64,000 nucleotides of DNA from a virus: positions 1-64,000 of IMG/VR virus record IMGVR_UViG_3300042905_004373. The stretch is one strand, 5' to 3'. The position numbers and the translations under genes were made by a program. Below are positions 12,775 to 26,064 of the stretch, in pieces. Under the pieces are notes generated by a model. It saw nothing but the letters and a program-made list of their open reading frames with translations. It was not told where the DNA came from and searched no databases. Numbering within the stretch: position 1 is the first letter of the stretch; the number at the start of each line of letters is the position of its first letter.

Positions 12775-12824
12775 ACAACTGGCACACAGGGCACTTCACA
12801 GGGGAACCAGATGCCTTATAATTG
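12766..12824 (+). promoter_or_regulatory. Class-A cassette
   Basis: GACACCTGAACAACTGGCACACAGGGCAC...GATGCCTTATAAT. Confidence 0.5.
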
Positions 12825-12845
12825 ATTCATAAGCAACCCAACCAA

Positions 12846-13430
12846 ATGAACATCAACGGATACGAAATCAAACCTGGTGCTAACCTTGTGGGTGCTTACC
12901 TTGGGTGTGCTTACCTTGTGGGTGCTAACCTTAGCGGTGCTCACCTTGTGAGTGCTAACCTTGTGAGTGCTAACCTTAGGGGTACTAACCTTAGTGGTGC
13001 CGACCTTGAGGGTGCCGACCTTAGTTGTGCCGCCCTTAGGGGTGCCGACCTTTATGGTGCCATCCTTAGGGGTGCCTACCTTAGGGATGCCAACCTTAGT
13101 TGTGCCGCCCTTAGGGGTGCTGACCTTAGGGGTGCTGACCTTAGGGGTGCTTACCTTGAGGGTGCCATCCTTAGGGGTGCTGACCTTTATCGTGCCGACC
13201 TTAGGGGTGCCGACCTTAGGGGTGCCTACCTTTATCGTGCCGACCTTAGGTATGCCAACCTTGAGGGTGCCAACCTTGAGGGTGCAAATGTAACAGAAAC
13301 CATTCTTGATGGGAAAGAAGAACCTTCTCAAGATACCACTTCACTTTCTGAAAAAGTTAAAGAACTTGAGGAAGAAAACAAGAAACTTAAGGATACACTT
13401 AAGGCAATTCTGGCACTTCTGGACACCTGA
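12846..13430 (+). CDS. pentapeptide-repeat protein (28 tandem A[D/N]LxG repeats) with C-terminal coiled coil
   Basis: GANLV GAYLG ... GADLR GAYLE ...; 15-bp DNA periodicity; C-terminal KVKELEEENKKLKDTLKAILALL; start at ATG 12846 rather than track TTG 12822. Confidence 0.8.
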   Translation: MNINGYEIKPGANLVGAYLGCAYLVGANLSGAHLVSANLVSANLRGTNLSGADLEGADLSCAALRGADLYGAILRGAYLRDANLSCAALRGADLRGADLRGAYLEGAILRGADLYRADLRGADLRGAYLYRADLRYANLEGANLEGANVTETILDGKEEPSQDTTSLSEKVKELEEENKKLKDTLKAILALLDT

Positions 13431-13480
13431 ACAACTGGCACACAGGGCACTTCACAGGGGAACCAGATGCCTTATAATAC
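13424..13480 (+). promoter_or_regulatory. Class-A cassette (exact copy of 12766 box)
   Basis: GACACCTGAACAACTGGCACACAGGGCACTTCACAGGGGAACCAGATGCCTTATAAT. Confidence 0.5.
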
Positions 13481-13504
13481 AAAGGTAGTCAAGGGAACAC
13501 TCCC

Positions 13505-13642
13505 ATGAACATGAGACCCAAACGGTACTTCTTCTTCGATGAGTATGGTGCATGGTACAAGGTGATTGCAAGTTGTCTTGCTGCTGCTACTGCACAACTT
13601 CCTGCCGATTTTGAGTACGATTACTACGAGGTTCACAAATGA
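13505..13642 (+). CDS. hypothetical protein (45 aa)
   Basis: ATG after conserved leader; ATGA overlap with next gene. Confidence 0.35.
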   Translation: MNMRPKRYFFFDEYGAWYKVIASCLAAATAQLPADFEYDYYEVHK

Positions 13643-14226
13643 TTACCTTTGATTATGTCGTTCACAAACTCTACTGTGATCGTAAAGAATGGGAATGCTA
13701 TTCTTACACTCCCGATTCAGTCATTGAAGAGATCAATGCACTTGTTTATGCAGTAATCACAACCAACACTGAACCTATAATTGCACAGAAGATCATTTAT
13801 GATACGATCTATGCAAATGAGATGTATCGTGGATATGGTTTCAGTGATTCTGAGTGCGATCAGTGTACGACCAATATCATCAATGAGTATTATGGTAGTG
13901 ACATTGATCGTTGGGTAAATCGTTCTCTAATTGCAGAACATAAGAATGAGAAGTGGATTCATAACGTAACACCTCAAAAAAACAACACACAGGAGAAAAA
14001 AGCAGTGGGACTTACACAACAAAGTTACGAACGACTTGCTGAAGCACTTGCTGATGAAGTATCCTGTTATATTGCTGAGGATGACAGGTTTCGGGAAATG
14101 ATTCTGAAGTTGATTCCTGAAGCAATTCAGAGTAAACTTGGTCTTGTTGATGCTGAAGTTATTGGTGAGTTGACTGCTCATCTTGCACCTAGAATGGTTC
14201 TTGTTGATATGGAATTCAATGTCTGA
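13639..14226 (+). CDS. hypothetical protein
   Basis: 195 aa. Confidence 0.6.
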   Translation: MITFDYVVHKLYCDRKEWECYSYTPDSVIEEINALVYAVITTNTEPIIAQKIIYDTIYANEMYRGYGFSDSECDQCTTNIINEYYGSDIDRWVNRSLIAEHKNEKWIHNVTPQKNNTQEKKAVGLTQQSYERLAEALADEVSCYIAEDDRFREMILKLIPEAIQSKLGLVDAEVIGELTAHLAPRMVLVDMEFNV

Positions 14227-14509
14227 AAATTACTCTCTACTTGAACCGATTCCTGCTTGCCGCGATTGTAAGCATTGTCGTTTGATTCCTGGTCTTTTTC
14301 ATGTTTGCCAAAAGCATTATGTTGAAGAATTGGATTACATTAAAGGCATAGTTTATGCTGTTGATATGGTTTGTATTGAAGTCAGGAAAGATAAATCTCT
14401 CTGTGGTCGAAATGGAAAGGATTTTGAGCAGAGGGAAAACCCACTTGAAGAAGACAAACCCAAATCAACTTGGTGGCATCTCAAGCAAATGATTAAAGAA
14501 TTCTTTTAA
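14219..14509 (+). CDS. Cys-rich hypothetical protein (CRDCKHC...C)
   Basis: ATGTCTGA overlap with upstream stop; in frame with track ORF 14183. Confidence 0.5.
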   Translation: MSENYSLLEPIPACRDCKHCRLIPGLFHVCQKHYVEELDYIKGIVYAVDMVCIEVRKDKSLCGRNGKDFEQRENPLEEDKPKSTWWHLKQMIKEFF

Positions 14510-14514
14510 GCATA

Positions 14515-14781
14515 ATGAATTACGAAACTGAAATCATAGATGGACACAAAGCAGTTGTCCGTCATTTCTTCAAACATCATGAAATCCAAGTTGGTTCTCG
14601 TTGGGCACGGGCAGATGGTTCCAAGGGTTATGTGACCGTTGAGGGTTTTAATTCTTATGGTTCTACTGACCCTTGGTATGAGGTTGTTTATTCTTGGGAA
14701 GAGAATGGTGTGAAGAAAACCTGGCAAAAAGAAACTTTTGCTTTCCAGTGCCGTTATTGCTTGATTGTTGAGGACACCTGA
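14515..14781 (+). CDS. hypothetical protein ending ...VEDT*
   Basis: 88 aa; stop within cassette. Confidence 0.55.
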   Translation: MNYETEIIDGHKAVVRHFFKHHEIQVGSRWARADGSKGYVTVEGFNSYGSTDPWYEVVYSWEENGVKKTWQKETFAFQCRYCLIVEDT

Positions 14782-14832
14782 TTAACTGGCACAGCAGGGC
14801 ACTTCAGACTCCTCTGGATGCCCTACAATAGT
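14774..14832 (+). promoter_or_regulatory. Class-A cassette variant (CCTGATTAACTGGCACAGCAGGGCAC ... CCCTACAAT)
   Basis: TACAAT -10 variant. Confidence 0.45.
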
Positions 14833-14854
14833 CTCATACACACAGAAACCTCAC

Positions 14855-15328
14855 ATGACCTTCTCTGACTTCGTTGCAACCCGTCCTATGGTTCAGGCAC
14901 AAGTGAACGATGTGCTTCGTTATACTGAATCTCTGGTCAATGCTCTGGATGAGAACTATCGTCTTCACACTACGAAATCTCATCAGAATGCCATTGCCAA
15001 GAATGGTATTGTGGATGAATCTTATGTTCCCTATCATGAGAAGTGTCTGGAGCAAATTCGCAATGGCACTTATGATTATCGTATGAATTTCTATATTGTG
15101 GAGAGTCGTAAGTATCTGCGTATTGAAATGGAAACTGGTGTCAATCATGATGGTAGTGTGAAGCAAAAGAGTATTCATGCCTTCATTGATAAGAAGACTG
15201 GTGAAGTGTATAAACCTGCAACCTGGAAGTCTCCTGCCAAGCATGTGCGTTTTAATCTCATGGATAAGCAATCCCGTGATAATTGCTATCGTCGTGCTGA
15301 CTGGGCAGGATCTTATCTGTACAAATGA
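14855..15328 (+). CDS. hypothetical protein
   Basis: 157 aa. Confidence 0.6.
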   Translation: MTFSDFVATRPMVQAQVNDVLRYTESLVNALDENYRLHTTKSHQNAIAKNGIVDESYVPYHEKCLEQIRNGTYDYRMNFYIVESRKYLRIEMETGVNHDGSVKQKSIHAFIDKKTGEVYKPATWKSPAKHVRFNLMDKQSRDNCYRRADWAGSYLYK

Positions 15329-15522
15329 TGTTTGATCCACTTAAGGAAGGATTCTACTATGTTGAGTACACTTATATGAATTGTACTCTGAAGGCAGTAT
15401 ATTTTGAATTAGAATCCGCACAGGAAGCAATGGTTAAGATGATGAAGAGAGGTGTTGAGTGTCATGGTCTTCATCAATGGAAACCTAAGTTAGAAATAGT
15501 ATCAATTAAAAAAAGGTATTAA
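15325..15522 (+). CDS. hypothetical protein
   Basis: 65 aa; ATGATG overlap. Confidence 0.45.
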   Translation: MMFDPLKEGFYYVEYTYMNCTLKAVYFELESAQEAMVKMMKRGVECHGLHQWKPKLEIVSIKKRY

Positions 15523-15808
15523 AAAATATATAATTGTTTTTTATAATGATAGTGTTATATGATGTTATTATCTTTTAATACTTTGAGTCTTATGCTTTCT
15601 AAATGCCTTATAATGCCTTATAAATGGTCGATTCTTATGCAAGTTTGGCGAGCGCATTATAACACACTCACTTCGCAAAGTCAACCCCCCGCGCCACCAT
15701 AAGAACTGGCACAACCTCACAAGATCTCAATATCATCATATAACACTATCATGATATGTTAGTATTTCAATATATTTGTACTTTATAAGTGCTATATAAT
15801 CTTATGTG

Positions 15809-15992
15809 AATCTCGACGAGACCTGCACGACTGCTTGCAATCTCGACGAGATCATGCTACAATATCAAAGTCACTCACAGAATCTCGACGAGCATTATGT
15901 ACGACGACTACGATCTCGACTACACATTTGGTAATGATTACAATCTCGACGAAGACTCATATGCCGAACTAGGTGCATCAGATCTCGAAGAG
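15809..15992. repeat. six direct copies of (A/G)ATCTCGA(C/A)GA(G/A) iteron-like repeat, 30-42-bp spacing, within 740-bp non-coding gap next to AT-rich tract
   Basis: copies at 15809, 15839, 15881, 15912, 15942, 15981; AT-rich 15523..15600. Confidence 0.6.
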
Positions 15993-16261
15993 GATTATGC
16001 GCGAGATGGTCAAGACTATCAAAGTCTTGCATATCGCCACTATGCATGATAGAATTCAGTACAATCGCATTTAATTCTCATGATCGCACAAAAACGACAG
16101 GTAAGAGTTGTTCTAGACATCGAGTGTTATGATGATCTGGATCTGGAAGATATTAATTGGCGCGAAGTACTTCAATTGGAAGGTGGGGAAGAAGTACATT
16201 ATAACATCAAAGACCTAGATCCCTTTATGTGATGTGACAATAAAAAAAGCGGCACAAGGAC

Positions 16262-16480
16262 ATGAGATCCCGTGCCGCTTTGTGGTCTATAATGACTGCA
16301 GTTCACACAACTCTCATGGAACTGAACATCAACCGAACTGATTTCACTGCTCTGGAGACTATTGCAACGGTTTTGAAGGTTTATGAGAACAACTTTCCGA
16401 ATCTGTCGGAAGGTGAGAATGCTCTATGGGCAATTGCGATGATTAAGCATGAGGTTGAGCAGACTGGTAGGACACTCTGA
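16262..16480 (+). CDS. hypothetical protein
   Basis: 72 aa (alt. start 16291). Confidence 0.45.
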   Translation: MRSRAALWSIMTAVHTTLMELNINRTDFTALETIATVLKVYENNFPNLSEGENALWAIAMIKHEVEQTGRTL

Positions 16481-16552
16481 CAACTGGCACAATGGCACTG
16501 GACTTCCTGCCGGTGCTCTGCTACATTACATTCGTACCTGAGACACCTCATG
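16471..16552 (+). promoter_or_regulatory. Class-B cassette (GACACTCTGACAACTGGCACAATGG ...)
   Basis: TGGCACA box after embedded stop. Confidence 0.4.
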
Positions 16553-16987
16553 TCCTACACTCAATTTGTTTGCACCTCCAAGTGTCAAGTTGCTGATGAT
16601 TTCAACCTGGAAGATTATCTGAAATCTCTGGTTGATTTCGTTGGTAATCATGTAGATGATCTCAGTGAGAGTATCACATGGTTGACAGAAATGGAGTATG
16701 ATGATGTGATCACGGAGTTTGAAAAGTACGTGTGGCAGAATGGGAATGAAGTTCTCATTAACTGTGACACCGAAGAGGATAATCATGACACTGATCTCTG
16801 GGATTGGTTGAGTGATCAAATCCGCCAAGATGTCATGATTTCTAAGTTCATGACCATCAATTCCACCACAATTGATTCTCGGGCAGGTGTCGATCCTTAC
16901 CAGGCATTTGTAATGAAGGATGGTACACAGATTGGTCCTACTGAAATCTCCAACATTGTGGAGCAGTATGTAAAGATGTCCAGTTGA
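16550..16987 (+). CDS. acidic hypothetical protein
   Basis: 145 aa, D/E-rich. Confidence 0.6.
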   Translation: MSYTQFVCTSKCQVADDFNLEDYLKSLVDFVGNHVDDLSESITWLTEMEYDDVITEFEKYVWQNGNEVLINCDTEEDNHDTDLWDWLSDQIRQDVMISKFMTINSTTIDSRAGVDPYQAFVMKDGTQIGPTEISNIVEQYVKMSS

Positions 16988-17061
16988 GGGACTGGCACAA
17001 GGGGTCTTGAGGTTCTTCAGGATCCCTGCCATACTTACATCGTTCACCACACATCACTGAC
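16988..17061 (+). promoter_or_regulatory. Class-B cassette (GGGACTGGCACAAGGGG ... CCATACT ... CGTTCACCACACATC)
   Basis: recurrent motif. Confidence 0.4.
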
Positions 17062-17532
17062 ATGGGAACTCGTTCACGCATTGGCATCGAAATGCCCGAT
17101 CACACTGTAGTTTCTGTCTACTGCCACTGGGATGGTTATCCTGAAGGGAATGGTAGACTTCTGGTTCAACATTATCTTGACCGTGATGATGTTCAAGAAC
17201 TGATTGATGGTGGTGGTATCTCATCACTGAGGACTCGTGGTTCTTGGAATCATGAATCTCCTCTTCGTGATGATAAGGGAGAGTACATTCATGACTCTCA
17301 AGGATACATGATGTATGAGAATGATCGTGATCCTCAACCACTCTTTTATACTGAGCGTGGAGAAGAAATCGACATTCAACACACCAGTTTCGATGAGTTT
17401 ATCTCAGGAAATCTGGGTGGTGAAGAGTATGCTTACCTGTTCGATCTGAATGATAACTGGAAAGCATACAAGACGGGTCTGTTTGATGCTGCTGAACGGG
17501 TGGAGATTCCCAACTATGTGACAGCAGCATAA
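17062..17532 (+). CDS. hypothetical protein
   Basis: 156 aa. Confidence 0.6.
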   Translation: MGTRSRIGIEMPDHTVVSVYCHWDGYPEGNGRLLVQHYLDRDDVQELIDGGGISSLRTRGSWNHESPLRDDKGEYIHDSQGYMMYENDRDPQPLFYTERGEEIDIQHTSFDEFISGNLGGEEYAYLFDLNDNWKAYKTGLFDAAERVEIPNYVTAA

Positions 17533-17604
17533 GTGGCACAAGGGGCACCTAGGATCGCCTACAGTGCCCCTATACTTAAGAAGTCAACCAACCACCACAT
17601 CATC
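17531..17604 (+). promoter_or_regulatory. Class-B cassette (GTGGCACAAGGGGCACCTAGGATCGCCTACAGTGCCCCTATACTTAAGAAGTCAACC)
   Basis: identical core copy at 18391..18469. Confidence 0.45.
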
Positions 17605-18072
17605 ATGGGTTACTACGTCAGCATTGAAGAAAGCACCTTTATGATTCCTGCTGAGAATCTGGATGCTGCTTATAAGGCAATGTGTGAACTAAACTATACT
17701 GTTCCTAACAGTCAGAAACGAGGTGGATCTTATCCCGATAAGGATAAGGCACCTGAGTATGGTCCTCATAAGTCCTGCTGGTTCTCATGGATGGATTGGA
17801 ACTATCATGAGACTTGTAAGGATGCTGAAAAGATTCTTCAGGAAGTTGGTTTCTACACTTCCATTGGTGAGAATGGAAATCTTCACATTGATGGGTATGG
17901 TAATAAGACTGGGCAGGAAGATTTGTTTCTGAAGTCTATCTGTTCACTTGCCAAAGGTTACATTGTGTGGAAAGGTGGAGAAGGTGAGTATTGGGGTGAG
18001 ACTTATGGTGGAGATAGGGTAATCGTAAAGGAACGATCCCGCCAGGATTTCAGTGATCTTGTGACACTCTGA
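17605..18072 (+). CDS. hypothetical protein (155 aa)
   Basis: ATG after CACATCATC leader; in frame with track ORF 17533. Confidence 0.55.
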   Translation: MGYYVSIEESTFMIPAENLDAAYKAMCELNYTVPNSQKRGGSYPDKDKAPEYGPHKSCWFSWMDWNYHETCKDAEKILQEVGFYTSIGENGNLHIDGYGNKTGQEDLFLKSICSLAKGYIVWKGGEGEYWGETYGGDRVIVKERSRQDFSDLVTL

Positions 18073-18144
18073 CAACTGGCACCAGAGGCACCTAAGACCC
18101 GCTCTGGGTGCCTTAAGATTAACAAGTCAACCACCGACACTCCA
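18062..18144 (+). promoter_or_regulatory. Class-B cassette
   Basis: GTGACACTCTGACAACTGGCACC...CTTAAGATTAACAAGTCAACC. Confidence 0.4.
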
Positions 18145-18393
18145 ATGAAACTCGTCAAGGTTCATTCTTCTAAGAGCATCAACTTCACCAAAAATGCATC
18201 ATTCTGGTGTGAGATGACTAATCTGTATAAGAAATGTTACCCAAAGCATTCTTTTAAGAGAATGGCAGATCATCTTGGTCTGACTGAGACTAATGCTCGC
18301 CGCTACTATTATGGTATTCATCATAAGAACTTTGGATACCTTGGACAAGGTGGTTATACTCAAATGCGTCAAGGTGCCTGTGTGACACTCTGA
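18145..18393 (+). CDS. hypothetical small basic protein (possible HTH)
   Basis: 82 aa; ...MADHLGLTETNARRYYYG... Confidence 0.5.
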   Translation: MKLVKVHSSKSINFTKNASFWCEMTNLYKKCYPKHSFKRMADHLGLTETNARRYYYGIHHKNFGYLGQGGYTQMRQGACVTL

Positions 18394-18469
18394 CAACTGG
18401 CACAGGGGGCACCTAGGATCGCCTACAGTGCCCCTATACTTAAGAAGTCAACCACACACACCCGACACC
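18391..18469 (+). promoter_or_regulatory. Class-B cassette (copy of 17531)
   Basis: CTGGCACAGGGGGCACCTAGGATCGCCTACAGTGCCCCTATACTTAAGAAGTCAACC. Confidence 0.45.
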
Positions 18470-18601
18470 ATGGAAGACACCCTCTGGATCGAAATTGCTG
18501 ATGCTCCCGGCGAAATCTTCGACATTCCTGAACTGCAGGATGAAGAAGACAATGATGAGCACACTTGGAACGCTTTCCTCAACTCTAACTGGGATTTCTG
18601 A
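18470..18601 (+). CDS. acidic mini-protein (43 aa)
   Basis: MEDTLWIEIADAPGEIFDIPELQDEEDNDEH... Confidence 0.35.
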   Translation: MEDTLWIEIADAPGEIFDIPELQDEEDNDEHTWNAFLNSNWDF

Positions 18602-18603
18602 TA

Positions 18604-18711
18604 ATGAACCAAGATCTTCTCATCATCCACTATAAGGATGGCACATCCCAAACTCTGAAGATGTATCATCTTCTGGCAATTCTTCCTTTGTTTGTTTTTC
18701 TGATCCGATGA
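18604..18711 (+). CDS. 35-aa membrane peptide
   Basis: ...MYHLLAILPLFVFLIR; ATGA-coupled chain. Confidence 0.3.
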   Translation: MNQDLLIIHYKDGTSQTLKMYHLLAILPLFVFLIR

Positions 18712-18836
18712 CACCTGACACTTACAACTTTACTGGCGACTCTGTGACAGTTCTCGGACTGGTCGGAGTGATCTCCACTGGCATCATTCTGGTGCTATGC
18801 TTCACTCGTTACTTCAATTCTCCCCTGAGAAAATGA
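18708..18836 (+). CDS. 42-aa membrane peptide
   Basis: ...VLGLVGVISTGIILVLCF...; ATGA overlap both ends. Confidence 0.3.
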   Translation: MTPDTYNFTGDSVTVLGLVGVISTGIILVLCFTRYFNSPLRK

Positions 18837-19048
18837 CACTCACTCCCGAACAGATTTCTGAGATTGTTGAAAAGTATTGTGATCGTGTCGTAGATGAAAT
18901 GGATACGAAAACAATGGAGCAGATGGTTTATGAACTGCTAGTTGATTCTTTCGCTCATGAATCTGAGAATGACATGGAATCTCTTATCACCTCAATCTAT
19001 GGTGAGGAATACTATCAAGAACTGGTGGAGAGTGTGACAGTTCAGTAA
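18833..19048 (+). CDS. hypothetical acidic protein (71 aa)
   Basis: in frame with track ORF 18797. Confidence 0.5.
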   Translation: MTLTPEQISEIVEKYCDRVVDEMDTKTMEQMVYELLVDSFAHESENDMESLITSIYGEEYYQELVESVTVQ

Positions 19049-19117
19049 GTGGCACACGGGGGCTTGAAATGCCCCCCATTTGCTGCCATACTACATTTGT
19101 TGAGAGGGAGACCCCTA
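19049..19117 (+). promoter_or_regulatory. Class-B cassette (GTGGCACACGGGGGCTTGAAATGCCCCCC ... GCCATACT)
   Basis: hairpin GGGGGC..GCCCCCC. Confidence 0.4.
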
Positions 19118-19363
19118 ATGACAATGACCGTTCGCCAAATGATTGAATGGATGTCCACCTTTGAGGATCAGGATGCCATCGTTGAAGTAGTTGTCCACAG
19201 TGAGGGTCGTGGTTATTACGACCGAGGTGGAAATGCTGATACTATGGAGTTCAATCCTGAGCAGCACGTAGATTACACCGATTTGCGTGGCAATCCGTTT
19301 GTGGACGAATCCTCTCCTTACCACAATCGTAGATCTGTGGTGTTGGGTGCGGTGAACGGTTAA
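19118..19363 (+). CDS. hypothetical protein (81 aa)
   Basis: in frame with track ORF 19049. Confidence 0.5.
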   Translation: MTMTVRQMIEWMSTFEDQDAIVEVVVHSEGRGYYDRGGNADTMEFNPEQHVDYTDLRGNPFVDESSPYHNRRSVVLGAVNG

Positions 19364-19504
19364 CCGTACCTGAACTGTGACAGTTCAGTAAGTGGCACAC
19401 AAGGGTTGACACCACTGCCAACCCGTGCCATACTAGATTCATCAGCGGGGGTGAAGCATCCCGCTCAAAACACTTCACTCAAACCTTACTTTTTTGTTTT
19501 TATT

Positions 19505-19717
19505 ATGTTCAAGTTCCAATCCAGCGCCATCGAAAACATCAGCGATGTGCAAGATGAGCAAGTGACCATCACCTTCATGGGTGGTCGTAACTATACCTAT
19601 AAGGTTGCTGAACCCAGCAACTTTGTGTCTGATCTGAATACTGTGATTGCCAAAGAGGAATCTGTTGGTAGTTTCATCAACTCTGCTATTCGTAGCGAGC
19701 GACTGCTGTCGATCTGA
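19505..19717 (+). CDS. hypothetical protein (70 aa)
   Basis: MFKFQSSAIENISDVQDEQV... Confidence 0.45.
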   Translation: MFKFQSSAIENISDVQDEQVTITFMGGRNYTYKVAEPSNFVSDLNTVIAKEESVGSFINSAIRSERLLSI

Positions 19718-19772
19718 TAGCATCTAGAGGGAGATTCTTCTCCCTCTTTCATTCTCTTTCTTGGAGTAATTC

Positions 19773-19919
19773 ATGAACAAAGAAATTATGACAACTCTTC
19801 TGGACCAAGGCACTGATGGGAACAGCATCCTTTCGATTCTTGATGCACTGTGTTCTGGGATGGACAGTGGTGAATCTAGTCAAGATAATGTCCCCACACT
19901 AGACGAGATTGAGTTCTAA
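19773..19919 (+). CDS. hypothetical acidic mini-protein (48 aa)
   Basis: MNKEIMTTLLDQGTDGNSILSILDAL... Confidence 0.3.
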   Translation: MNKEIMTTLLDQGTDGNSILSILDALCSGMDSGESSQDNVPTLDEIEF

Positions 19920-20049
19920 AACTCGACGAGGTGTGCCACATCATCTAGTGGCACATTCAATCTCGACGAGTCATGAGACATCAACTAGATTATGTACATC
20001 TCGACGAGCACATCATGGAAACCGCATTCGTTATTCCAATCTCGAAGAA
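19919..20049. repeat. four copies of (A)ATCTCGACGAG-type repeat plus GTGCCAC-N9-GTGGCAC palindrome
   Basis: copies at 19919, 19959, 19998, 20038; palindrome 19933..19954. Confidence 0.55.
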
Positions 20050-20203
20050 AGCAAAGAATCGCTTTGCAAACATGATGCAATCAAACGATGAATGTATCAT
20101 CGAGCAACACAAAGGAAACAAACTGTTTCTTGCATCTATGAATCAGAAATACTTTTTTTGGGTTTCACTTGACAATGATCCAGACTGGATGGTAGACTTT
20201 TGA
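20015..20203 (+). CDS. hypothetical protein (62 aa)
   Basis: METAFVIPISKKAKNRF...; upstream part of track ORF 19973 overlaps repeats. Confidence 0.35.
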   Translation: METAFVIPISKKAKNRFANMMQSNDECIIEQHKGNKLFLASMNQKYFFWVSLDNDPDWMVDF

Positions 20204-20281
20204 TACACGGGGAATGAGATGCGCCCCATCCTTAAGAAAAGACACTCAATGCGTAGAGAACAGATAATCATAGCATACATG

Positions 20282-20314
20282 ATAGGTGAAAGTGGATCTT
20301 GAGGATCAGGGTGG
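20282..20314 (+). terminator. intrinsic terminator-like hairpin AGGATCAGG-gtggtg-CCTGATCCT + TTTTTCTTTTC
   Basis: perfect 9-bp stem followed by T-run. Confidence 0.55.
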
Positions 20315-20471
20315 TGCCTGATCCTTTTTCTTTTCTTTATCTTATTATTTTTTGACAGGTTCCGTGGCGATGTATTGTTCAGTAGAGATACCCTTCTCCC
20401 GTTGGTGCTGGTTGTCCTCTTAAGATACTGCCAGACTGCCCACAAAACCCTGATGCTGTGCCAGTTCGATC

Positions 20472-20560
20472 AGTGGCACAATGGTGGTTGATCGGGTCGG
20501 TTCTGGCATGGCATCATTCACTCAACGGCGCACCAATGACGCCGCCTCACTTCTAAAATC
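20472..20560 (+). promoter_or_regulatory. Class-B cassette (CAGTGGCACAATGG ...)
   Basis: TGGCACA box upstream of ATG 20561. Confidence 0.35.
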
Positions 20561-21040
20561 ATGAGCAACGCCACTGTTCAAGTTGTTATCAACGGCAACC
20601 AAGTTCAAGGTAAGATTGATGAGATCGCCAAGATTCTGAGCGTTGTAAGTGACACTCTGGCGCCAACAGTTGCTCCTGTTGTTTCTAACAATGTGGAAGA
20701 ACTTGCACTCAAGTTCGTTGACTTTTTTGCCACTGAACTTGATAGTCACATTAGTGGTGGAAAGTTGTTTGTTCATGAACTCAACCGACTGCGCCACAAT
20801 GGTAACACTTACCGTGCCATGATTCGCGTTTATCATGATTTGGTTAATAAAGGTGCGGAAGGATGGGCAAAGCGCCGCCAACTGTTGCTAACTGCCAGCG
20901 CAATCTGGCGTTATACTTTCCGGGGTTCCGAAAAGTCTAAACTTCGCTATCAGATTGAGGCAGTTATTGAATGTGACGATTGTGGGCAGTTTGCTACTGC
21001 AATGGTGAATCGCATGAAGAAAGAGAAACTCTGGGTGTGA
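20561..21040 (+). CDS. hypothetical protein
   Basis: 159 aa. Confidence 0.6.
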   Translation: MSNATVQVVINGNQVQGKIDEIAKILSVVSDTLAPTVAPVVSNNVEELALKFVDFFATELDSHISGGKLFVHELNRLRHNGNTYRAMIRVYHDLVNKGAEGWAKRRQLLLTASAIWRYTFRGSEKSKLRYQIEAVIECDDCGQFATAMVNRMKKEKLWV

Positions 21041-21046
21041 CAATCC

Positions 21047-21132
21047 GATAACTGGCACAAGGGGGGCAGCGATGCCTCCCATCCTGCCCGCTGATGCTGT
21101 AGGATAACTGCAGTTCACACCACACCGCCACC
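21047..21132 (+). promoter_or_regulatory. Class-B cassette (AACTGGCACAAGGGGGGCAGCGATGCCTCCC ... CTGTAGGATAACTGCAGTTCACACCACACC)
   Basis: leader shared with 22406..22443. Confidence 0.45.
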
Positions 21133-21867
21133 ATGCTGAACTTCACCAAGGGTAACGCCAAACTGGGCAAGCAAACTCTGATCTTTAACCTGCCAGCAGG
21201 TAAGACTTGCCCCGGTGCAATGTATTGCAAATCGTTCGTTGTTGTTGATAACGGCGAGCGTCACATTCAAGATGGCGAGCATACTATTTTCCGATGCTTT
21301 GCTGCATCCAGTGAGGTGCAATACGATGCAGCATTCAACAATCGCGCCAACAATCTGCGCCTGATTGTTGATGCTCTGAAGGATGGATCTGCAGCAGATC
21401 TTATCAATGAGGGCATTCAAGAACACCGCACAAAAAATACCAAACTGGTGCGGATTCATGAGAGCGGAGACTTTTTCTCTGGTGCATATTTGGATGCCTG
21501 GATTGAAGTTGCACAGCGCAATCCTGATCTGAAATTCTACTGCTACTCTAAGAGTCTGCAGTTGTTTCTTAACTTTAAGATGCCTGCTAACTTCTACTTC
21601 ACTGCCTCTTATGGTGGCAAATGGGATAGTCTGATTGATGCAGGATTGTTCACTCGTTATGCTAAAGTCTTCATGACCGAAGGTGATGCTAACGCTGCAG
21701 GTCTTGAAGTAGATCATGACGACTCTCACTGTTTCGGTGAGAAACCGTTTGCTCTGTTGGTGCATGGAACTCAACCGAAAGGTTCACTCTGGGGCAAGGC
21801 AATTCGCGCCCGTCGTTCTAATCAACAGTTCAGCGGTTACAGTAAGAAACTGCCTGTGACAGTCTGA
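21133..21867 (+). CDS. conserved-looking hypothetical protein with Cys/His motifs (GKTCPGAMYC ... RIHESGDFF ... HDDSHC)
   Basis: 244 aa; possible metal-binding enzyme. Confidence 0.6.
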   Translation: MLNFTKGNAKLGKQTLIFNLPAGKTCPGAMYCKSFVVVDNGERHIQDGEHTIFRCFAASSEVQYDAAFNNRANNLRLIVDALKDGSAADLINEGIQEHRTKNTKLVRIHESGDFFSGAYLDAWIEVAQRNPDLKFYCYSKSLQLFLNFKMPANFYFTASYGGKWDSLIDAGLFTRYAKVFMTEGDANAAGLEVDHDDSHCFGEKPFALLVHGTQPKGSLWGKAIRARRSNQQFSGYSKKLPVTV

Positions 21868-21947
21868 CCACTGTCCACCACGGGGCGCTCCGGCGCCCCA
21901 TCCTGCCATCCGATCCTGTAGACTTACAGAGTCAACCACACCGCACC
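21868..21947 (+). promoter_or_regulatory. Class-B-like cassette with GGGGCGC-tccg-GCGCCCC hairpin, CATCCTGCC and CTGTAGACTTACAGAGTCAACCACACC leader
   Basis: no TGGCACA box here. Confidence 0.35.
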
Positions 21948-22190
21948 ATGATCCCCGATCCCACCCAGGCAACCGCCATCCTCAACCGCTGCGACGCCTT
22001 CACCGTTGCCGGTGCTACTCTCCCGGTTTGGGAGCGTATCCTTAACGATCTCACAATCCCCACCGACCTTTATGATAAGGTTGAGGATCTCATTGAGATC
22101 CTGGAATACATCGAAGGTTGGCAACCTTCCGATGCTGACATGATCGCCGCGAACAGTTGCGGTACAGCATGGCATGACGGTTGCCGCTGA
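21948..22190 (+). CDS. hypothetical protein
   Basis: 80 aa. Confidence 0.5.
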   Translation: MIPDPTQATAILNRCDAFTVAGATLPVWERILNDLTIPTDLYDKVEDLIEILEYIEGWQPSDADMIAANSCGTAWHDGCR

Positions 22191-22365
22191 TTGATTATAC
22201 TTAAGGGGGCACAAGTTGCCTCCTTTTTTTATACTTTTTGCGCCATTATTTTATGGCAGGTTCGGTGGCGATAGTTGTTCAACCGGCGACCCTGCCGGTG
22301 TTGGTGCTGATTGTCTCCATAGTCTACAGGCACCACAGACCCATAAGACCGCCATGGTGGACAGT

Positions 22366-22443
22366 TCCACAAGTGGCACAACCCCCCATAGACGGATCCG
22401 ATCCCTGTGCTGTAGGATAACTGCAGTTCACCACACCACTCCG
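22366..22443 (+). promoter_or_regulatory. Class-B cassette (CACAAGTGGCACAACC ... GCTGTAGGATAACTGCAGTTCACCACACC)
   Basis: 34-bp exact repeat with 22789..22824. Confidence 0.45.
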
Positions 22444-22698
22444 ATGAACTTCTACAGTTTCTCCTCCCTGAACTTCTTTGATTCCTGTGGTGCCCGCCTG
22501 GCACGACATACCTTTGCGAATGGTTGGGTGATCAGTGTTGCAGCAGGTTCGAAGGATTCTGGAATCTACGGTGACATCGAGCACAATACCTTTGAGGTCG
22601 GGATTATCCGTCCCAATGGTAACATGCTGGAGGATGTTATCAGTTGGCAGACTCCAGAAGAGATCACTACCATAATGGGTGTGATTAAAATGCTATAA
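22444..22698 (+). CDS. hypothetical protein (84 aa)
   Basis: ATG after CACCACACCACTCCG leader; track ORF 22216 extends upstream through cassette (spurious). Confidence 0.5.
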   Translation: MNFYSFSSLNFFDSCGARLARHTFANGWVISVAAGSKDSGIYGDIEHNTFEVGIIRPNGNMLEDVISWQTPEEITTIMGVIKML

Positions 22699-22703
22699 GA
22701 ATC

Positions 22704-22729
22704 GGGAGCATCTTTGCTCCCTTTTTTTA
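22704..22729 (+). terminator. hairpin GGGAGCA-tctt-TGCTCCC + T7
   Basis: stem-loop followed by TTTTTTT; part of 65-bp block duplicated at 23525. Confidence 0.55.
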
Positions 22730-22805
22730 TACCTAACCCCACCAAAAATAGGTTCTACCTTCATCCTAGCACGGCACCCGCCTTCTAATCCGCCATGGTG
22801 GACAG

Positions 22806-22881
22806 TTCCACAAGTGGCACAACCTGATGGCACTGCGCCCCGTCTGCCCCCATACTGGTATCAGTTCACCACACCACTCCG
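22806..22881 (+). promoter_or_regulatory. Class-B cassette (AAGTGGCACAACC ... CCCCATACTGGTATCAGTTCACCACACC)
   Basis: recurrent. Confidence 0.45.
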
Positions 22882-23133
22882 ATGAACTTCTCTGCTCTCA
22901 CCCGCACCATGGTTCGCAGCATCCTCATCCAGCAGGGACCCCAAACCTGCTCCGACATCGTTCGGGGCATGGGACTGGATCCCCGCCGCCATAAGGGCAC
23001 TGTTCACGCTATCATGGTGGACATGGAGCGTGACGGCATCCTGAGCGCCACCATGAAAGGCAAGCGGCGCGATCTCTGGAGCATCAGCACCATCCGCAAG
23101 CGTGACAGGATCCTTGCTGCCCTGATCGGTTGA
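22882..23133 (+). CDS. small basic protein, possible winged-helix DNA-binding regulator
   Basis: 83 aa; ...TCSDIVRGMGLDPRRHKGTVHAIMVDMERDGIL... Confidence 0.5.
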   Translation: MNFSALTRTMVRSILIQQGPQTCSDIVRGMGLDPRRHKGTVHAIMVDMERDGILSATMKGKRRDLWSISTIRKRDRILAALIG

Positions 23134-23216
23134 ACCCCTACGGGGCGCAGAGCGCCCCTTCTACCATGCTCAACGCTCTAACCTGCTCCCGCTCCCCTAA
23201 ATTCCACCGTGCCACC

Positions 23217-23333
23217 ATGCTGCGCCTTCTGATCGCTGCTCTGCTGCTCTACTGGTTCTGGGAACCAATCCGCCCCATCCGCAATGTGACAGGTGAAGCA
23301 CTGTCCACTGCTGCTGAAATGATCCGCCGCTGA
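23217..23333 (+). CDS. 38-aa hydrophobic peptide
   Basis: MLRLLIAALLLYWFWEPIRPI... Confidence 0.3.
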   Translation: MLRLLIAALLLYWFWEPIRPIRNVTGEALSTAAEMIRR

Positions 23334-23368
23334 CCCTGTAGACTTCTCTCAGTTCACACCACTGAACC

Positions 23369-23503
23369 ATGACCTACGCTTTCACTGACGATCTCCAGGT
23401 TGAAGAGTACATCCCCACTGAGGATGATTGGGCATCCTATTATGAGGACGATCAGGCACTTGAAGAGTATTCTCTGGAGTGTGCATTTGGTCCTGAAGAA
23501 TGA
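23369..23503 (+). CDS. acidic mini-protein (44 aa)
   Basis: MTYAFTDDLQVEEYIPTEDDW...; after CAGTTCACACCACTGAACC leader. Confidence 0.35.
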   Translation: MTYAFTDDLQVEEYIPTEDDWASYYEDDQALEEYSLECAFGPEE

Positions 23504-23691
23504 CACAAACTGGGGGGCAATCGCCTCCCTTTTTTTATACCTAACCCCACCAAAAATAGGTTCTACCTTCATCCTAGCACGGCACCCGCACCCCTTGTCA
23601 ATCCCCTGACCCATTAGCATTGCTGATCGTTCAACCCCTTGACTCTGGTGCCGTTTGGGGCAATACTGGTATCAGTTCACCACATTACACA

Positions 23692-24042
23692 ATGACTAAA
23701 CCGACAGAAATTCATCCTGCAATTGCTGCAAATCTTGGATGGGATATTGATGCTGCCTCAAATGATAATTTGGTTACTGTAGTACGCCATCGCATCATTT
23801 TGGAAGAGGTAGTGATGACCAGGGAAGAATTTAATACGATGAATGAAAATGTAAAGAATGAAGAATCTTGTTGGAATGAAATTGAATGGCAAGATGCACA
23901 GTGGGATGATTATTGTGAAGAGCGTACAACCTATACTGCATTTCCCGGAGATGTAACATCATTCACTGATGATTGCGTTGCATTCTTATATCCCGAAGCA
24001 GAATGGGTGGAATGCTTTGAAACTGTGAAATGTGCCAATTGA
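23692..24042 (+). CDS. hypothetical acidic protein (116 aa)
   Basis: in frame with track ORF 23620; ATG after CAGTTCACCACATTACACA leader. Confidence 0.5.
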   Translation: MTKPTEIHPAIAANLGWDIDAASNDNLVTVVRHRIILEEVVMTREEFNTMNENVKNEESCWNEIEWQDAQWDDYCEERTTYTAFPGDVTSFTDDCVAFLYPEAEWVECFETVKCAN

Positions 24043-24044
24043 GG

Positions 24045-24116
24045 CACTGGCACAAGGGGATCGGCAACGGTCCCCACCCATCCTGTAGAATTCTCTCAGT
24101 TCACACCACACCACCC
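24045..24116 (+). promoter_or_regulatory. Class-B cassette (GGCACTGGCACAAGGGGATCGGCAACGGTCCCCACCCATCCTGTAG ... CAGTTCACACCACACC)
   Basis: recurrent. Confidence 0.45.
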
Positions 24117-24239
24117 GTGACTCTCTCACCTGCCACCTCCCTGCAGACTCGCCAACTGGTCTGGGTCCGCAATGGCGTTAAGATTCACTCAGCACCAGCA
24201 GCAACCTGGGCGGCACTGGGGCGCAACGGTCGCCTCTGA
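24117..24239 (+). CDS. possible 40-aa ORF with GTG start
   Basis: leader ends ...CACCCGTG; weak. Confidence 0.25.
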   Translation: MTLSPATSLQTRQLVWVRNGVKIHSAPAATWAALGRNGRL

Positions 24240-24293
24240 TCTGATACAATACAGGGGAGGCACAATCCTCCCCACATTCTTCACCCTTTCATC

Positions 24294-24482
24294 ATGGAAA
24301 CTATTCTCACCCCCGAAGAAATCACCGAACTGAATACTACCGGAAAGGTGACTCTTACCGATGATCTTATGATTCGCATGAAGCAATTCTGCGATCTTGT
24401 TGATACCAAAATCACAGAATCTTATGAGGATTCTGATTGGTTTAATGATCCGAATTGTGTAATGTCAAGGCATCATTATTGA
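24294..24482 (+). CDS. hypothetical protein
   Basis: 62 aa. Confidence 0.45.
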   Translation: METILTPEEITELNTTGKVTLTDDLMIRMKQFCDLVDTKITESYEDSDWFNDPNCVMSRHHY

Positions 24483-24525
24483 ATCTCGTCGAGACGCGCA
24501 CACAAGTTCACATGATCTCGACGAG
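24482..24525. repeat. two copies (one inverted) of ATCTCGACGAG repeat
   Basis: AATCTCGTCGAG (24482) and GATCTCGACGAG (24514). Confidence 0.45.
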
Positions 24526-25433: not shown

Positions 25434-25494
25434 GTTACATTCAGGGGTGACGTTCTCACCCCTATTCTTTACACTTTCCACCGTTATTCTTGTC

Positions 25495-25827: not shown

Positions 25828-25839
25828 TTGTTAGTTAGT

Positions 25840-25904
25840 GGGCGGCAGTTAGGTATACTCTGCCGCCCTAATCACGAACGATTAGTATTCCTTATTCGTT
25901 CGTG
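25840..25904 (+). terminator. tandem hairpins GGGCGGCAG-N11-CTGCCGCCC and CACGAACG-N16-CGTTCGTG + TTT at GC-rich/AT-rich boundary
   Basis: perfect 9-bp and 8-bp stems. Confidence 0.5.
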
Positions 25905-26064
25905 TTTGACAGTTAAGCGATCCTAATTGAAAAACCCAACACTACCCTAACCTACAAAGTGTTACGGAAGCGAGAGAAATATAAGACTCTATAATAAAAA
26001 AATCCCCCCACCAAAAAATTTCAAAAACCCCGCATATATAAAATCAAAACTTATATTCACTCAA

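What the first reader, a model, noticed from the sequence alone, without database searches (positions are those of the whole stretch)
15523..16260. Iteron array plus AT-rich tract in a 740-bp gene-free gap: candidate replication origin or regulator-binding array
Six direct copies of (A/G)ATCTCGA(C/A)GA(G/A) sit at 30–42-bp intervals (15809–15992), immediately downstream of an about 80-bp A+T tract (15523–15600) and duplicated TATAAT boxes. This is the classical iteron + DNA-unwinding-element layout of theta or phage origins. The same repeat recurs in two other non-coding gaps, at 19919–20049 and 24482–24525. Alternatively the region encodes a 50-aa acidic D/E/Y-rich peptide (15897..16049), the repeats falling in-frame as NLDE/DLD codons, but the DNA-level conservation exceeds what the peptide requires.
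Basis: seen in the sequence. Interest (0 to 1): 0.68.

Follow-up and report, generated by a model that had tools for sequence, protein, structure and literature searches.

The report
Operator-like palindrome array in cyanophage promoters
The repeated 12-mer is real and conserved in hundreds of T4-like cyanophage contigs, where it sits in fixed positions on host-type promoters and inside a tiny conserved acidic-protein gene. It therefore looks like a set of regulator-binding sites rather than replication-origin iterons, and an origin role for the neighbouring AT-rich DNA stays open.

Summary
The window comes from a T4-like cyanomyovirus whose nearest cultured relative is Synechococcus phage S-SRM01.

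**The repeat is real.** RATCTCGAMGAR gives 8 hits, all on the + strand, against 0.04 expected. They fall in three clusters near 15.8, 19.9 and 24.5 kb. S-SRM01 has the same three clusters, holding 13 of its 15 family hits in 97% of its 240-kb genome.

**The gap is not gene-free.** It holds two conserved 50-aa genes, an acidic one at 15897-16049 and a second at 16080-16232, followed by a terminator-like hairpin.

**The motif is a near-palindrome,** AATCTCG-A-CGAGATT, not a simple direct repeat.

**Its positions are conserved.** In 55 distinct loci found without using the motif:
- One copy lies in the spacer of a TTGCAT-N17-TGnTAYAAT promoter in 52 of 55.
- One copy lies 1-6 nt before the acidic gene's ATG in 53 of 55.
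- Others lie upstream, and 2-3 are read in frame as DLDE/DLDY codons.

**Best reading (about 0.5):** operators for an unidentified dimeric DNA-binding regulator of a few short transcription units.

**Origin reading:** iteron-type origin function is not supported. The same gap, however, holds a deeply conserved leftward sigma-70 promoter firing into the AT-rich tract. That resembles a T4 oriF/oriG-type layout, so origin function for the region cannot be excluded.

The parts
15500..15600 (.). AT-rich tract containing ATTAAAAAA-N6-ATTAAAAAA-TATATAAT. It is a candidate DNA-unwinding element or U-run region for the leftward transcript, and also holds weak rightward promoter-like matches.
   Evidence: G+C is 12.5% at 15500-15579. 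The pattern has a single hit in the window, and 20 of 52 relatives keep it at the same relative place. Promoter-like TTAAAA-N17-TATAAT matches are listed.
15602..15623 (+). Tandem 10-mer AATGCCTTAT x2.2 (the 'duplicated TATAAT boxes'). It includes TATAAATG, which resembles a T4-type late promoter box.
   Evidence: Found by Tandem Repeats Finder. Relatives carry 1-7 copies of 10-27-bp units with TATAAAT in the same slot.
15630..15716 (.). Conserved G+C-rich core of the intergenic region.
   Evidence: It aligns across 56 distinct loci. It shows no consensus RNA structure and no covariation for the candidate hairpin.
15656..15684 (-). Leftward sigma-70 promoter P_L: TTGACT-N17-(TG)T-TATAAT. It fires toward the AT-rich tract, antisense to the neighbouring genes.
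   Evidence: It scores 11/12 with a TG extension in the promoter scan. TTGACA/T-N17-TAnnnT is kept in 51 of 56 relatives, 47 of them with the TG extension. It is also kept in S-SRM01, S-SKS1, S-SM2, Bellamy and S-SCSM1. The 150 nt downstream average 28% G+C.
15795..15800 (+). Possible -10 box (TATAAT within TATATAAT) of an upstream rightward promoter P1. Copy 1 would then sit at about +1.
   Evidence: Read from the sequence. TATATAyT..TTATG-AAT-CTCGACGAG is conserved in relatives. The assignment is an inference.
15809..15820 (+). Motif copy 1, AATCTCGACGAG (non-coding).
   Evidence: A copy is present in the -95..-70 slot in most of the 55 independent loci.
15835..15863 (+). Rightward sigma-70 promoter P2: TTGCAA-N17-(TG)C-TACAAT.
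   Evidence: Found by the promoter scan. An equivalent promoter is present in 54 of 55 relatives.
15839..15850 (+). Motif copy 2, lying in the -35/-10 spacer of P2.
   Evidence: 52 of 55 relatives have the motif in this spacer, with central base T in 37 and A in 14.
15881..15892 (+). Motif copy 3, in the 5' untranslated region 4 nt before the ATG.
   Evidence: 53 of 55 relatives have a copy 1-6 nt before the ATG, always with central A.
15897..16049 (+). Conserved acidic 50-aa gene (MYDDYDLDY...DLEEDYARDGQDYQSLAYRHYA). It contains motif copies 4-6 (15912-15923, 15942-15953, 15981-15992) as DLDY/NLDE/DLEE codons, plus a CGAGAT half-site at 16002.
   Evidence: tblastn hits in 92 loci of the motif-ascertained set. 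It lies directly upstream of the orf16080 homologue in 77 of 80 independent loci. A 78th, variant copy is seen in L131 and a deleted remnant in L189. Synonymous variation occurs alongside amino-acid conservation. Codon bias toward the motif is shown.
16080..16232 (+). Second conserved 50-aa gene (MIAQKRQVRVVLDIECYDDLDLEDINWREVLQLEGG...), of unknown function.
   Evidence: Alignment A1. 417 viral contigs encode a relative, and 121 protein clusters match. It matches phrog_12516. The AlphaFold2 model has pLDDT 85 with almost no regular secondary structure and no PDB match.
16246..16281 (+). Terminator-like hairpin that closes the two-gene unit.
   Evidence: Minimum free energy -20.4 kcal/mol, z-score -2.65.
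19896..20049 (+). Cluster 2: motif family copies at 19899, 19922, 19962 and 20000, plus a degenerate copy at 20041. It also holds a conserved hairpin (19933-19954) and leads into ORF 20015-20203.
   Evidence: The architecture is conserved in about 16 loci including S-SRM01. The downstream protein matches phrog_1653.
24482..24525 (+). Cluster 3: AATCTCGTCGAG and GATCTCGACGAG upstream of ORF 24562-24696.
   Evidence: Relatives carry 2-4 copies in the same place.

Best explanation
**What it is.** The repeats are binding sites (operators) for a sequence-specific, probably dimeric, DNA-binding regulator. The full site is the 13-15-bp near-palindrome (A)ATCTCG-A/T-CGAGAT(T). Some lineages use arrays of the half-site ACGAGAT instead.

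**Where the sites sit.** They lie on and around host-type (sigma-70) promoters that drive three short, terminator-bounded transcription units in the variable early/middle region of a clade of T4-like cyanophages. At the first unit one site lies upstream of the promoter, one lies inside the -35/-10 spacer, and one lies about +18, just before the start codon. Two or three more lie inside the first gene, where they double as Asp-Leu-Asp-Glu codons. Spacings cluster near whole numbers of helical turns.

**How it most likely works.** Occupancy of these sites would most simply block or time RNA polymerase access, giving shut-off or delayed firing of these units.

**Shown:** motif enrichment, palindromic form, fixed promoter-relative positions in many relatives, confinement to three promoters, and coding of the embedded gene.

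**Inferred:** that a protein binds, that binding represses, and which protein it is (unknown; none identified nearby).
For: **Enrichment**
- 8 hits against 0.04 expected, and 9 against 0.36 for the looser family.
- A logo from 525 distinct copies gives RAT-CTCGACGAG-ATT, a 15-bp near-palindrome.

**Conserved placement.** In 55 distinct upstream regions found through the neighbouring protein, not the motif:
- The motif lies in the spacer of a TTGnnn-N-TAnnnT promoter in 52.
- It lies 1-6 nt before the ATG in 53.
- It abuts the -10 of an extra TTGACA-N17-TAGAAT promoter in 16.
- Scrambled-motif controls give 0.
- The central base flips A/T in the spacer and distal copies, as expected for a two-fold symmetric DNA site.

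**Spacing and lineage variants**
- Copy-to-copy spacing peaks at 22-24, 30-33, 39-43 and 59-67 bp.
- Lineages with half-site arrays keep them in the same slots.

**Distribution**
- S-SRM01 keeps the three clusters in the syntenic place. They hold 13 of its 15 family hits in 97% of the genome, against about 3.6 hits expected genome-wide.
- Cultured relatives that have the downstream gene but lack the acidic gene have no motif.
Against: - No DNA-binding protein was identified. Pfam and PHROGs find nothing informative in the neighbouring small proteins. The orf16080 model has no recognisable DNA-binding fold.
- Copy 3 always has central A and copy 1 mostly A, an orientation preference that a perfectly symmetric operator does not predict.
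- Half-site lineages show a strong same-strand bias.
- Part of the positional conservation and spacing pattern could be shared ancestry rather than selection.
- There are no transcription start-site or binding data for this clade.
Confidence: 0.5

Rival explanations
1. Replication origin. The region would be an origin of this T4-like phage. Either the repeats are initiator-binding iterons, or, more plausibly, the conserved leftward promoter P_L makes a transcript that forms an R-loop in the AT-rich tract and primes DNA synthesis (the T4 oriF/oriG mechanism). In the second case the repeat arrays would be auxiliary or regulatory sites.
For: - P_L (TTGACT-N17-TGTTATAAT, - strand) is the joint-best promoter match in 13.5 kb.
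- It is kept in 51 of 56 relatives and five cultured phages. The 150 nt downstream average 28% G+C, and there is no gene on that strand.
- The window's tract is 12.5% G+C.
- Some relatives carry 3-4 DnaA-box-like TGTGGAAA(A) repeats between P_L and the AT tract.
- The locus lies between the gene-5 and gene-25/6 modules in S-SRM01, broadly where oriE lies in T4.
Against: - The repeats lie on the other side of P_L from the AT tract, at three separate promoters, partly in coding DNA and in mixed orientation.
- No initiator gene is adjacent. RepEA and RepEB show no similarity to the two small proteins.
- The window itself has no DnaA-like boxes.
- GC skew shows no turn.
- A promoter facing AT-rich DNA is also what a small antisense or non-coding RNA gene looks like.
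- T4's own oriE 'iterons' coincide with an 8-codon coding periodicity in gene 5, and their role is undefined.
Confidence: 0.15
2. RNA-level element. The motif would act in the transcripts, which would explain the invariable copy just before the start codon. It could be a site for a translational repressor or nuclease, or copies could pair with each other (CUCG/CGAG) to occlude the start region.
For: - Copy 3 always has the same orientation and lies 1-6 nt from the ATG in 53 of 55 loci.
- In cluster 2 the last copy lies 6 nt before the ATG.
- All window copies are on the coding strand.
- Any two copies can form an 8-9-bp duplex, and the window's copies 1 and 2 pair in the minimum-free-energy fold.
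- Half-site lineages are strongly strand-biased.
Against: - The centre bases of copies 1 and 2 show no covariation: A/T 42, A/A 20, T/T 14, T/A 9.
- Window-type lineages keep ATCTCG on the coding strand while half-site lineages keep CGAGAT, so the RNA sequences would differ.
- Copies upstream of and inside the promoter need not be transcribed.
- Palindromy itself is unexplained by a single-stranded site.
Confidence: 0.15
3. No sequence-specific function. The non-coding copies would be relics of tandem duplication of a 30-40-bp unit from which the acidic gene's DLDE repeats also derive. Alternatively, the repeats would mainly serve as homology patches for recombinational shuffling of small genes (PeSL-like).
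For: - Copies share a longer unit, CTCGACGAG-n-(T)TATGC/TAC.
- In L189 most of the acidic gene is missing, with copy 3 joined to the gene's 3' part. I read this as a deletion between copy 3 and the gene's last copy.
- The clusters lie in a hypervariable small-gene region, where PeSL-type shuffling is described for T4-like phages (PMC2839356 and PMC4122927).
Against: - Spacers are not alignable, and Tandem Repeats Finder sees no array.
- The 9-12-nt core stays exact while flanks diverge across hundreds of contigs, and its promoter-relative positions are fixed.
- PeSLs are promoter plus stem-loop units of about 50-70 bp. That description fits the window's other repeat family (ACTGGCACA...TATAAT) and not this one.
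Confidence: 0.12

Closest known systems
Multi-operator repressor-controlled promoters (lambda OR/OL, P22 Arc/Mnt operators, MetJ met-box arrays). The comparison rests on my own knowledge of these systems.
   Same: Short two-fold symmetric sites are repeated several times. They overlap the -35/-10 spacer and the start-site region of sigma-70 promoters, and spacing is compatible with cooperative binding on one face of the helix.
   Different: No cognate DNA-binding protein is identified. Several sites are embedded as codons in the first gene. Some lineages use direct arrays of half-sites. The phage is a strictly lytic T4-like virus with no known repressor of this kind.
[quoted passage not shown]
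   Same: A 12-nt repeat is spaced at regular intervals near an early or host-type promoter, next to two open reading frames of about 45-50 codons. Part of the repeat lies in coding DNA. The genome neighbourhood (between the gene-5 and gene-6 modules) is broadly similar.
   Different: The T4 repeats (GTTGAAGGTAAT every 24 nt) lie wholly inside gene 5 and follow its 8-codon periodicity. repEA and repEB are antisense to gene 5 and unrelated in sequence. The present motif is palindromic, variably spaced, half non-coding, and present at three loci.
[quoted passage not shown]
   Same: The conserved leftward promoter P_L faces a very A+T-rich stretch within about 50-150 bp and has no gene to express.
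   Different: P_L is a plain sigma-70 promoter, not MotA-dependent. There is no evidence of R-loops or origin activity. The CTCGACGAG repeats are not part of this promoter-DUE pair.
PeSL promoter-stem-loop cassettes of T4-like hyperplastic regions; PMC2839356, PMC4122927.
   Same: Repeated regulatory DNA lies between small variable genes. One relative appears to show a deletion between two copies.
   Different: PeSLs are composite promoter + stem-loop units. The CTCGACGAG motif is a 12-15-bp site without a stem-loop and is confined to three promoters. The window's ACTGGCACA...TATAAT family is the better PeSL analogue.

Membership tests
Iteron-type replication origin (theta plasmids, lambda-like phages) | Several direct repeats in one orientation at regular (about 2-turn) spacing in non-coding DNA | tested here: not met
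   The unit is a near-palindrome whose centre flips. Spacing varies from 30 to 42 bp in the window. Three of the six copies in cluster 1 are codons of a conserved gene. Half-site lineages do show direct arrays.
Iteron-type replication origin (theta plasmids, lambda-like phages) | Adjacent A+T-rich unwinding element | tested here: inconclusive
   An AT tract exists (12.5% G+C). It lies about 210 bp from the first copy and is separated from it by a conserved leftward promoter.
Iteron-type replication origin (theta plasmids, lambda-like phages) | Cognate initiator (Rep) gene next to the iterons | tested here: not met
   The neighbouring genes are 44-72-aa proteins with no Pfam match and only PHROGs families of unknown function. 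The orf16080 model has no recognisable fold.
Iteron-type replication origin (theta plasmids, lambda-like phages) | Origin activity (copy-number peak, autonomous replication) | not testable with these tools
   GC skew is monotonic because almost all genes share one strand. No replication data are available.
T4 oriF/oriG-type R-loop origin | [quoted passage not shown] | tested here: met
   P_L at 15684-15656 (- strand) is followed by DNA of 12-24% G+C at 15500-15619. The arrangement is conserved in 51 of 56 relatives, with a mean of 28% G+C downstream. This holds at sequence level only.
T4 oriF/oriG-type R-loop origin | Persistent R-loop and priming of leading-strand synthesis | not testable with these tools
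   This requires experiments.
Operator array of a repressor-controlled sigma-70 promoter | Two-fold symmetric site | tested here: met
   The logo reads AATCTCG-A-CGAGATT. Both centre variants are used.
Operator array of a repressor-controlled sigma-70 promoter | Sites overlap core promoter elements or the start site, and do so conservedly | tested here: met
   Spacer site in 52 of 55 loci, pre-ATG/+18 site in 53 of 55, and a site abutting the -10 in 16 of 55. Scrambled controls give 0.
Operator array of a repressor-controlled sigma-70 promoter | Identified cognate DNA-binding protein | tested here: not met
   None was found among the neighbours. The scan of bacterial genomes gave only chance coding matches in high-GC organisms among the rows listed.
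PeSL cassettes | Composite early promoter plus stem-loop unit repeated through hyperplastic regions | tested here: not met
   The motif is 12-15 bp, has no associated stem-loop, and is confined to three loci. Tandem Repeats Finder and the spacers show no longer repeated unit.
Purely coding repeat | All copies in frame within a conserved protein | tested here: not met
   Copies 1-3 are out of a common frame in S-SRM01 (spacings of 25 and 43 bp). The cluster-2 copies in the window are also out of a common frame. They remain positionally conserved.

The most novel reading that the evidence does not exclude
The whole intergenic hub would be the first recognisable replication origin of T4-like cyanophages. 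A deeply conserved antisense sigma-70 promoter would prime an R-loop in the AT-rich tract. In some lineages it would be flanked by host DnaA-box clusters. The palindrome and half-site arrays would be the binding sites of a still unknown initiator or regulator, making this a relative in kind of the poorly understood T4 oriE (early promoter + 12-nt repeats + two micro-genes).
Probability: 0.15. Interest if true: 0.75.

Novelty: new member of a known kind. Interest (0 to 1): 0.45.

Why it matters
T4-like cyanophages lack the MotA/AsiA switch of T4, and how they time their gene expression is only partly known.

- **A testable regulon.** A palindromic site fixed on host-type promoters and conserved across more than 400 viral contigs defines a small regulon and points to an unidentified DNA-binding regulator.
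- **Unannotated micro-genes.** The acidic micro-gene is not annotated as its own gene in S-SRM01, where the only annotated CDS touching it (85784-85981) belongs to the downstream gene. Its position first after a strong promoter makes it a candidate host-takeover or anti-defence factor.
- **A concrete origin or non-coding-RNA candidate.** I know of no mapped replication origin in cyanomyoviruses, so the conserved leftward promoter facing AT-rich DNA is a specific place to look.

Tried and rejected
- **Nucleotide similarity.** Megablast of the region against cultured phages found nothing.
- **Known RNA families.** Rfam found nothing at gathering thresholds or at E<=10.
- **Structured RNA in the G+C-rich core.** RNAalifold gave 0 pairs. 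My candidate hairpin showed no covariation against shuffles. Rejected.
- **orf16080 as a ribbon-helix-helix repressor.** The AlphaFold2 model lacks the two helices, and there is no PDB match and no Pfam hit. Rejected.
- **Homology of the two micro-proteins to T4 RepEA/RepEB.** None.
- **Identity with the Syn9 early-gene element.** Syn9 has no copy of the motif. Its early-gene upstream regions instead resemble the window's other family, ACTGGCACA...TATAAT. The Doron et al. 2016 paper could not be read.
- **Literature search for the sequence string.** It returned only unrelated primers. The S-SRM01 genome paper does not mention promoters or motifs.
- **Bacterial and archaeal genome scan for paired motifs.** The rows listed were high-GC actinobacteria, haloarchaea and similar organisms, where CTC-GAC-GAG are common codons. 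None was cyanobacterial, so this is uninformative about a host regulon.
- **Hairpin between copies 1 and 2.** The centre bases do not covary.
- **Degenerate tandem repeat.** Tandem Repeats Finder finds none.
- **GC skew as an origin marker.** It is monotonic in the window and in S-SRM01.
- **Nearby DNA-binding protein.** Pfam and PHROGs searches of about 20 small ORFs found none.
Full report
**1. What the window is.**
The large ORFs match T4-type baseplate, neck, terminase and sheath families (gp6, gp8, DUF4815, Hc2, TerL, sheath). The structural block is about 77% identical in nucleotides to the freshwater Synechococcus phage S-SRM01 (Kyanoviridae) and more distantly to marine cyanomyoviruses. 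Almost all genes are on the + strand. The finding lies in a block of small ORFs at 13-26 kb that has higher G+C than the structural genes. In S-SRM01 this block lies between the gene-5 module and the gene-25/6 module.

**2. Observation check.**
- RATCTCGAMGAR has 8 exact hits, all on the + strand, against 0.04 expected.
- TCTCGACGAG with at most 1 mismatch gives 14 matches counted over both strands, against 0.82 expected. All fall at 15.8, 19.9 and 24.5 kb.
- The palindromic family CTMGWCKAG gives 9 hits against 0.36 expected.
- The AT tract is real, at 12.5% G+C for 15500-15579.
- The 'duplicated TATAAT' is a 10-bp tandem AATGCCTTAT x2.2.
- The sixth copy (15912) ends in TAC rather than GAR. 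The AT tract is about 210 bp away from the first copy.

**3. The gap is not gene-free.**
- ORF 15897-16049 (MYDDYDLDYTFGNDYNLDEDSYAELGASDLEEDYARDGQDYQSLAYRHYA) and ORF 16080-16232 are both conserved.
- The second ORF has relatives on 417 IMG/VR contigs and in 121 protein clusters. It matches phrog_12516.
- In 80 loci retrieved through that protein alone, 77 carry the acidic ORF directly upstream. A 78th has a variant copy, and one has a deleted remnant.
- Amino acids are conserved while some synonymous sites are randomised: Asp4 GAC 29 / GAT 26, and His-3 CAT 30 / CAC 25. Both are therefore protein-coding.
- A hairpin at 16246-16281 (-20.4 kcal/mol, z -2.65) closes the unit.
- In S-SRM01 the only annotated CDS touching the acidic ORF is 85784-85981, which belongs to the downstream gene.

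**4. Nature of the repeat.**
Most have 36-47% G+C and 4-8 copies each.
- A logo from 525 distinct copies reads RAT-CTCGACGAG-ATT, that is the near-palindrome AATCTCG-A-CGAGATT.
- Variants keep the symmetry: CTCGTCGAG, CTAGTCGAG, CTAGACGAG and CTCGACTAG.
- Some lineages (S-SKS1, L131, L140) use direct arrays of the half-site ACGAGAT in the same places.

**5. Position relative to promoters.** In the 55 distinct upstream regions of the independently ascertained set:
- 54 have a TTGnnn-N17/18-TAnnnT promoter whose -35 starts about 60 nt before the ATG. In the window this is TTGCAA-N17-TACAAT with a TG extension at 15835-15863.
- The motif lies in the spacer in 52 of 55, with centre T in 37 and A in 14.
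- It lies 1-6 nt before the ATG in 53 of 55, always with centre A.
- It lies at -95..-70 in most loci.
- It abuts the -10 of an additional TTGACA-N17-TAGAAT promoter in 16 of 55.
- Three scrambled motifs give 0.
- Copy-to-copy spacings peak at 22-24, 30-33, 39-43 and 59-67 bp. This is close to whole helical turns, although homologous positions are not independent observations.
- Clusters 2 and 3 are likewise conserved in relatives. Cluster 2 keeps a hairpin and a copy 6 nt before the ATG of the next gene.

**6. Distribution.**
- In 97% of the S-SRM01 genome, 13 of 15 family hits lie in three intergenic clusters between 85.5 and 91.0 kb. About 3.6 hits are expected by chance genome-wide.
- Syn9 has none.
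- Cultured phages that have the orf16080 homologue but lack the acidic gene have no motif in the loci examined (DSL-LC03, S-SM2, Bellamy, S-SCSM1).
- S-SKS1, S-T4 and S-SRM01 have both the acidic gene and the motif.
- The motif therefore travels with the acidic gene and two further small transcription units.

**7. Coding copies.**
- In 55 distinct genes, [DN]LDE is encoded GAT (69 of 71 Asp codons), CTC (73/81), GAC (70/81) and GAG (78/81). Elsewhere in the gene GAT is 63% and GAG 54%, and the other conserved Leu uses CTT.
- This fits a DNA-level constraint. However, many other codons of this gene are also nearly invariant, so the test is suggestive rather than decisive.

**8. The rest of the gap.**
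- The G+C-rich 'core' (15630-15716) aligns across all relatives but shows no RNA structure.
- Its conservation is explained by a leftward sigma-70 promoter. In the window this is TTGACT (15684-15679)-N17-TGT-TATAAT (15661-15656), scoring 11/12.
- 51 of 56 relatives keep TTGACA/T-N17-TAnnnT, 47 of them with the TG extension. So do S-SRM01, S-SKS1, S-SM2, Bellamy and S-SCSM1.
- The promoter fires against the direction of all neighbouring genes into repeat-laden DNA averaging 28% G+C, and there is no ORF on that strand.
- Downstream of it relatives carry variable modules: 1-7 tandem units containing TATAAAT, TTGAGAAT boxes with an inverted partner (24 of 53), or 3-4 DnaA-box-like TGTGGAAA(A) repeats (6 of 53, plus S-SM2 and S-SCSM1).
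- Beyond these lies the element ATTAAAAAA-N6-ATTAAAAAA, which has a single hit in the window and occurs in 20 of 52 relatives.

**9. Mechanism.**
The best-supported reading is that the palindromes are operators of an unidentified dimeric regulator that controls host-type promoters of three short units. The shown and inferred steps are listed under the best explanation. The rival explanations are:
- An origin function, either iteron-type or, more plausibly, a P_L-primed R-loop in the AT tract.
- An RNA-level role, suggested by the invariant pre-ATG copy.
- Relics of duplication or recombination patches. In L189 copy 3 is joined to the 3' part of the acidic gene, which I read as a deletion between two copies.

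**10. Comparison with known systems.**
- In the T4 record, repEA (50 aa) and repEB (45 aa) lie antisense in gene 5 and are unrelated to the present proteins.
- The T4 repeats GTTGAAGGTAAT recur every 24 nt inside gene 5.
[quoted passage not shown] P_L plus the AT tract meets this at sequence level only.
- PeSL cassettes resemble the window's other repeat family, not this one. That family is 17 copies of GACACyTGAcaACTGGCACA...TGCCyTATAAT. The same kind of element precedes Syn9 early genes.

**11. Novelty and verdict.**
- I found no description of the motif in the searchable literature. The key Syn9 transcriptome paper could not be read.
- As a regulator-site array on promoters it is a new member of a known kind.
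- Three things make it moderately interesting: its embedding in a conserved micro-gene, its spread over hundreds of cyanophage contigs, and the neighbouring conserved antisense promoter.
- The iteron-origin interpretation is not supported. An origin role for the hub remains possible (about 0.15).

Noticed in passing
window 463-24046 (e.g. 463, 2895, 8649, 10641, 12778, 13434, 14785, 16483, 18396, 21051, 24046): There are 17 copies of a roughly 60-bp unit, GACACyTGAcaACTGGCACA, then about 27 nt (often a G+C hairpin), then TGCCyTATAAT, upstream of small genes. Syn9 early-gene upstream regions carry the same kind of element (GGTGGCACA...TATAAG). This is probably the clade's early-promoter class and is PeSL-like.
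   Followed up: partly
window 15656-15684 (- strand) and the homologous place in 51 of 56 relatives: A deeply conserved leftward sigma-70 promoter with an extended -10 fires antisense into AT-rich, repeat-laden DNA with no ORF. It is a candidate non-coding or antisense RNA gene, or an R-loop origin promoter.
   Followed up: partly
L147, L162, L164, L179, L182, L198; S-SM2 locus L330 about 1250-1320; S-SCSM1 locus L332 about 900-930: Clusters of 2-4 DnaA-box-like TGTGGAAA(A) repeats at 9-12-bp spacing lie between the leftward promoter and the AT tract in some relatives. Other relatives have TTGAGAAT boxes with an inverted partner in the same slot. The window has neither.
   Followed up: partly
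window 12990-13260: A 15-bp tandem coding repeat, CCTTAGGGGTGCCGA, lies in ORF 12822-13430. Its five-codon periodicity is pentapeptide-repeat-like.
   Followed up: no
window 24700-25090; S-SRM01 record about 91500-91740: AT-rich direct repeats (24700-24900) are followed by a G+C-rich non-coding block that S-SRM01 also has, where it lies beside an HNH endonuclease gene. It could be a non-coding RNA or an intron-like remnant. Rfam found nothing.
   Followed up: no
window 20300-26400 (e.g. 22203, 22704, 23512): Several G+C hairpins between small genes are followed by TTTTTTTATA(C). They look like terminators fused to a TATA-type box.
   Followed up: no
window 13000-26000 versus 27000-55000: There is a strong G+C contrast: 41-52% in the small-gene block against 26-32% in the structural genes. 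This suggests a different origin or different constraints for the variable block.
   Followed up: no
T4 locus L205 3903-4070 (T4 79402-79569): The classical T4 oriE '12-nt iterons' (GTTGAAGGTAAT every 24 nt) lie in the 3' part of gene 5 and follow an 8-codon periodicity, so they are at least partly a coding repeat.
   Followed up: partly
L189 about 1287-1380: In one relative, motif copy 3 is joined directly to the 3' part of the acidic gene and most of the gene is missing. I read this as a deletion between copy 3 and the last in-gene copy, which would show that the repeats can act as recombination substrates.
   Followed up: no
window 31013-42721 and 44372-51676: There are two giant structural ORFs of 3902 aa (with a YHYH domain) and 2434 aa (DUF4815), as in S-SRM01.
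   Followed up: no
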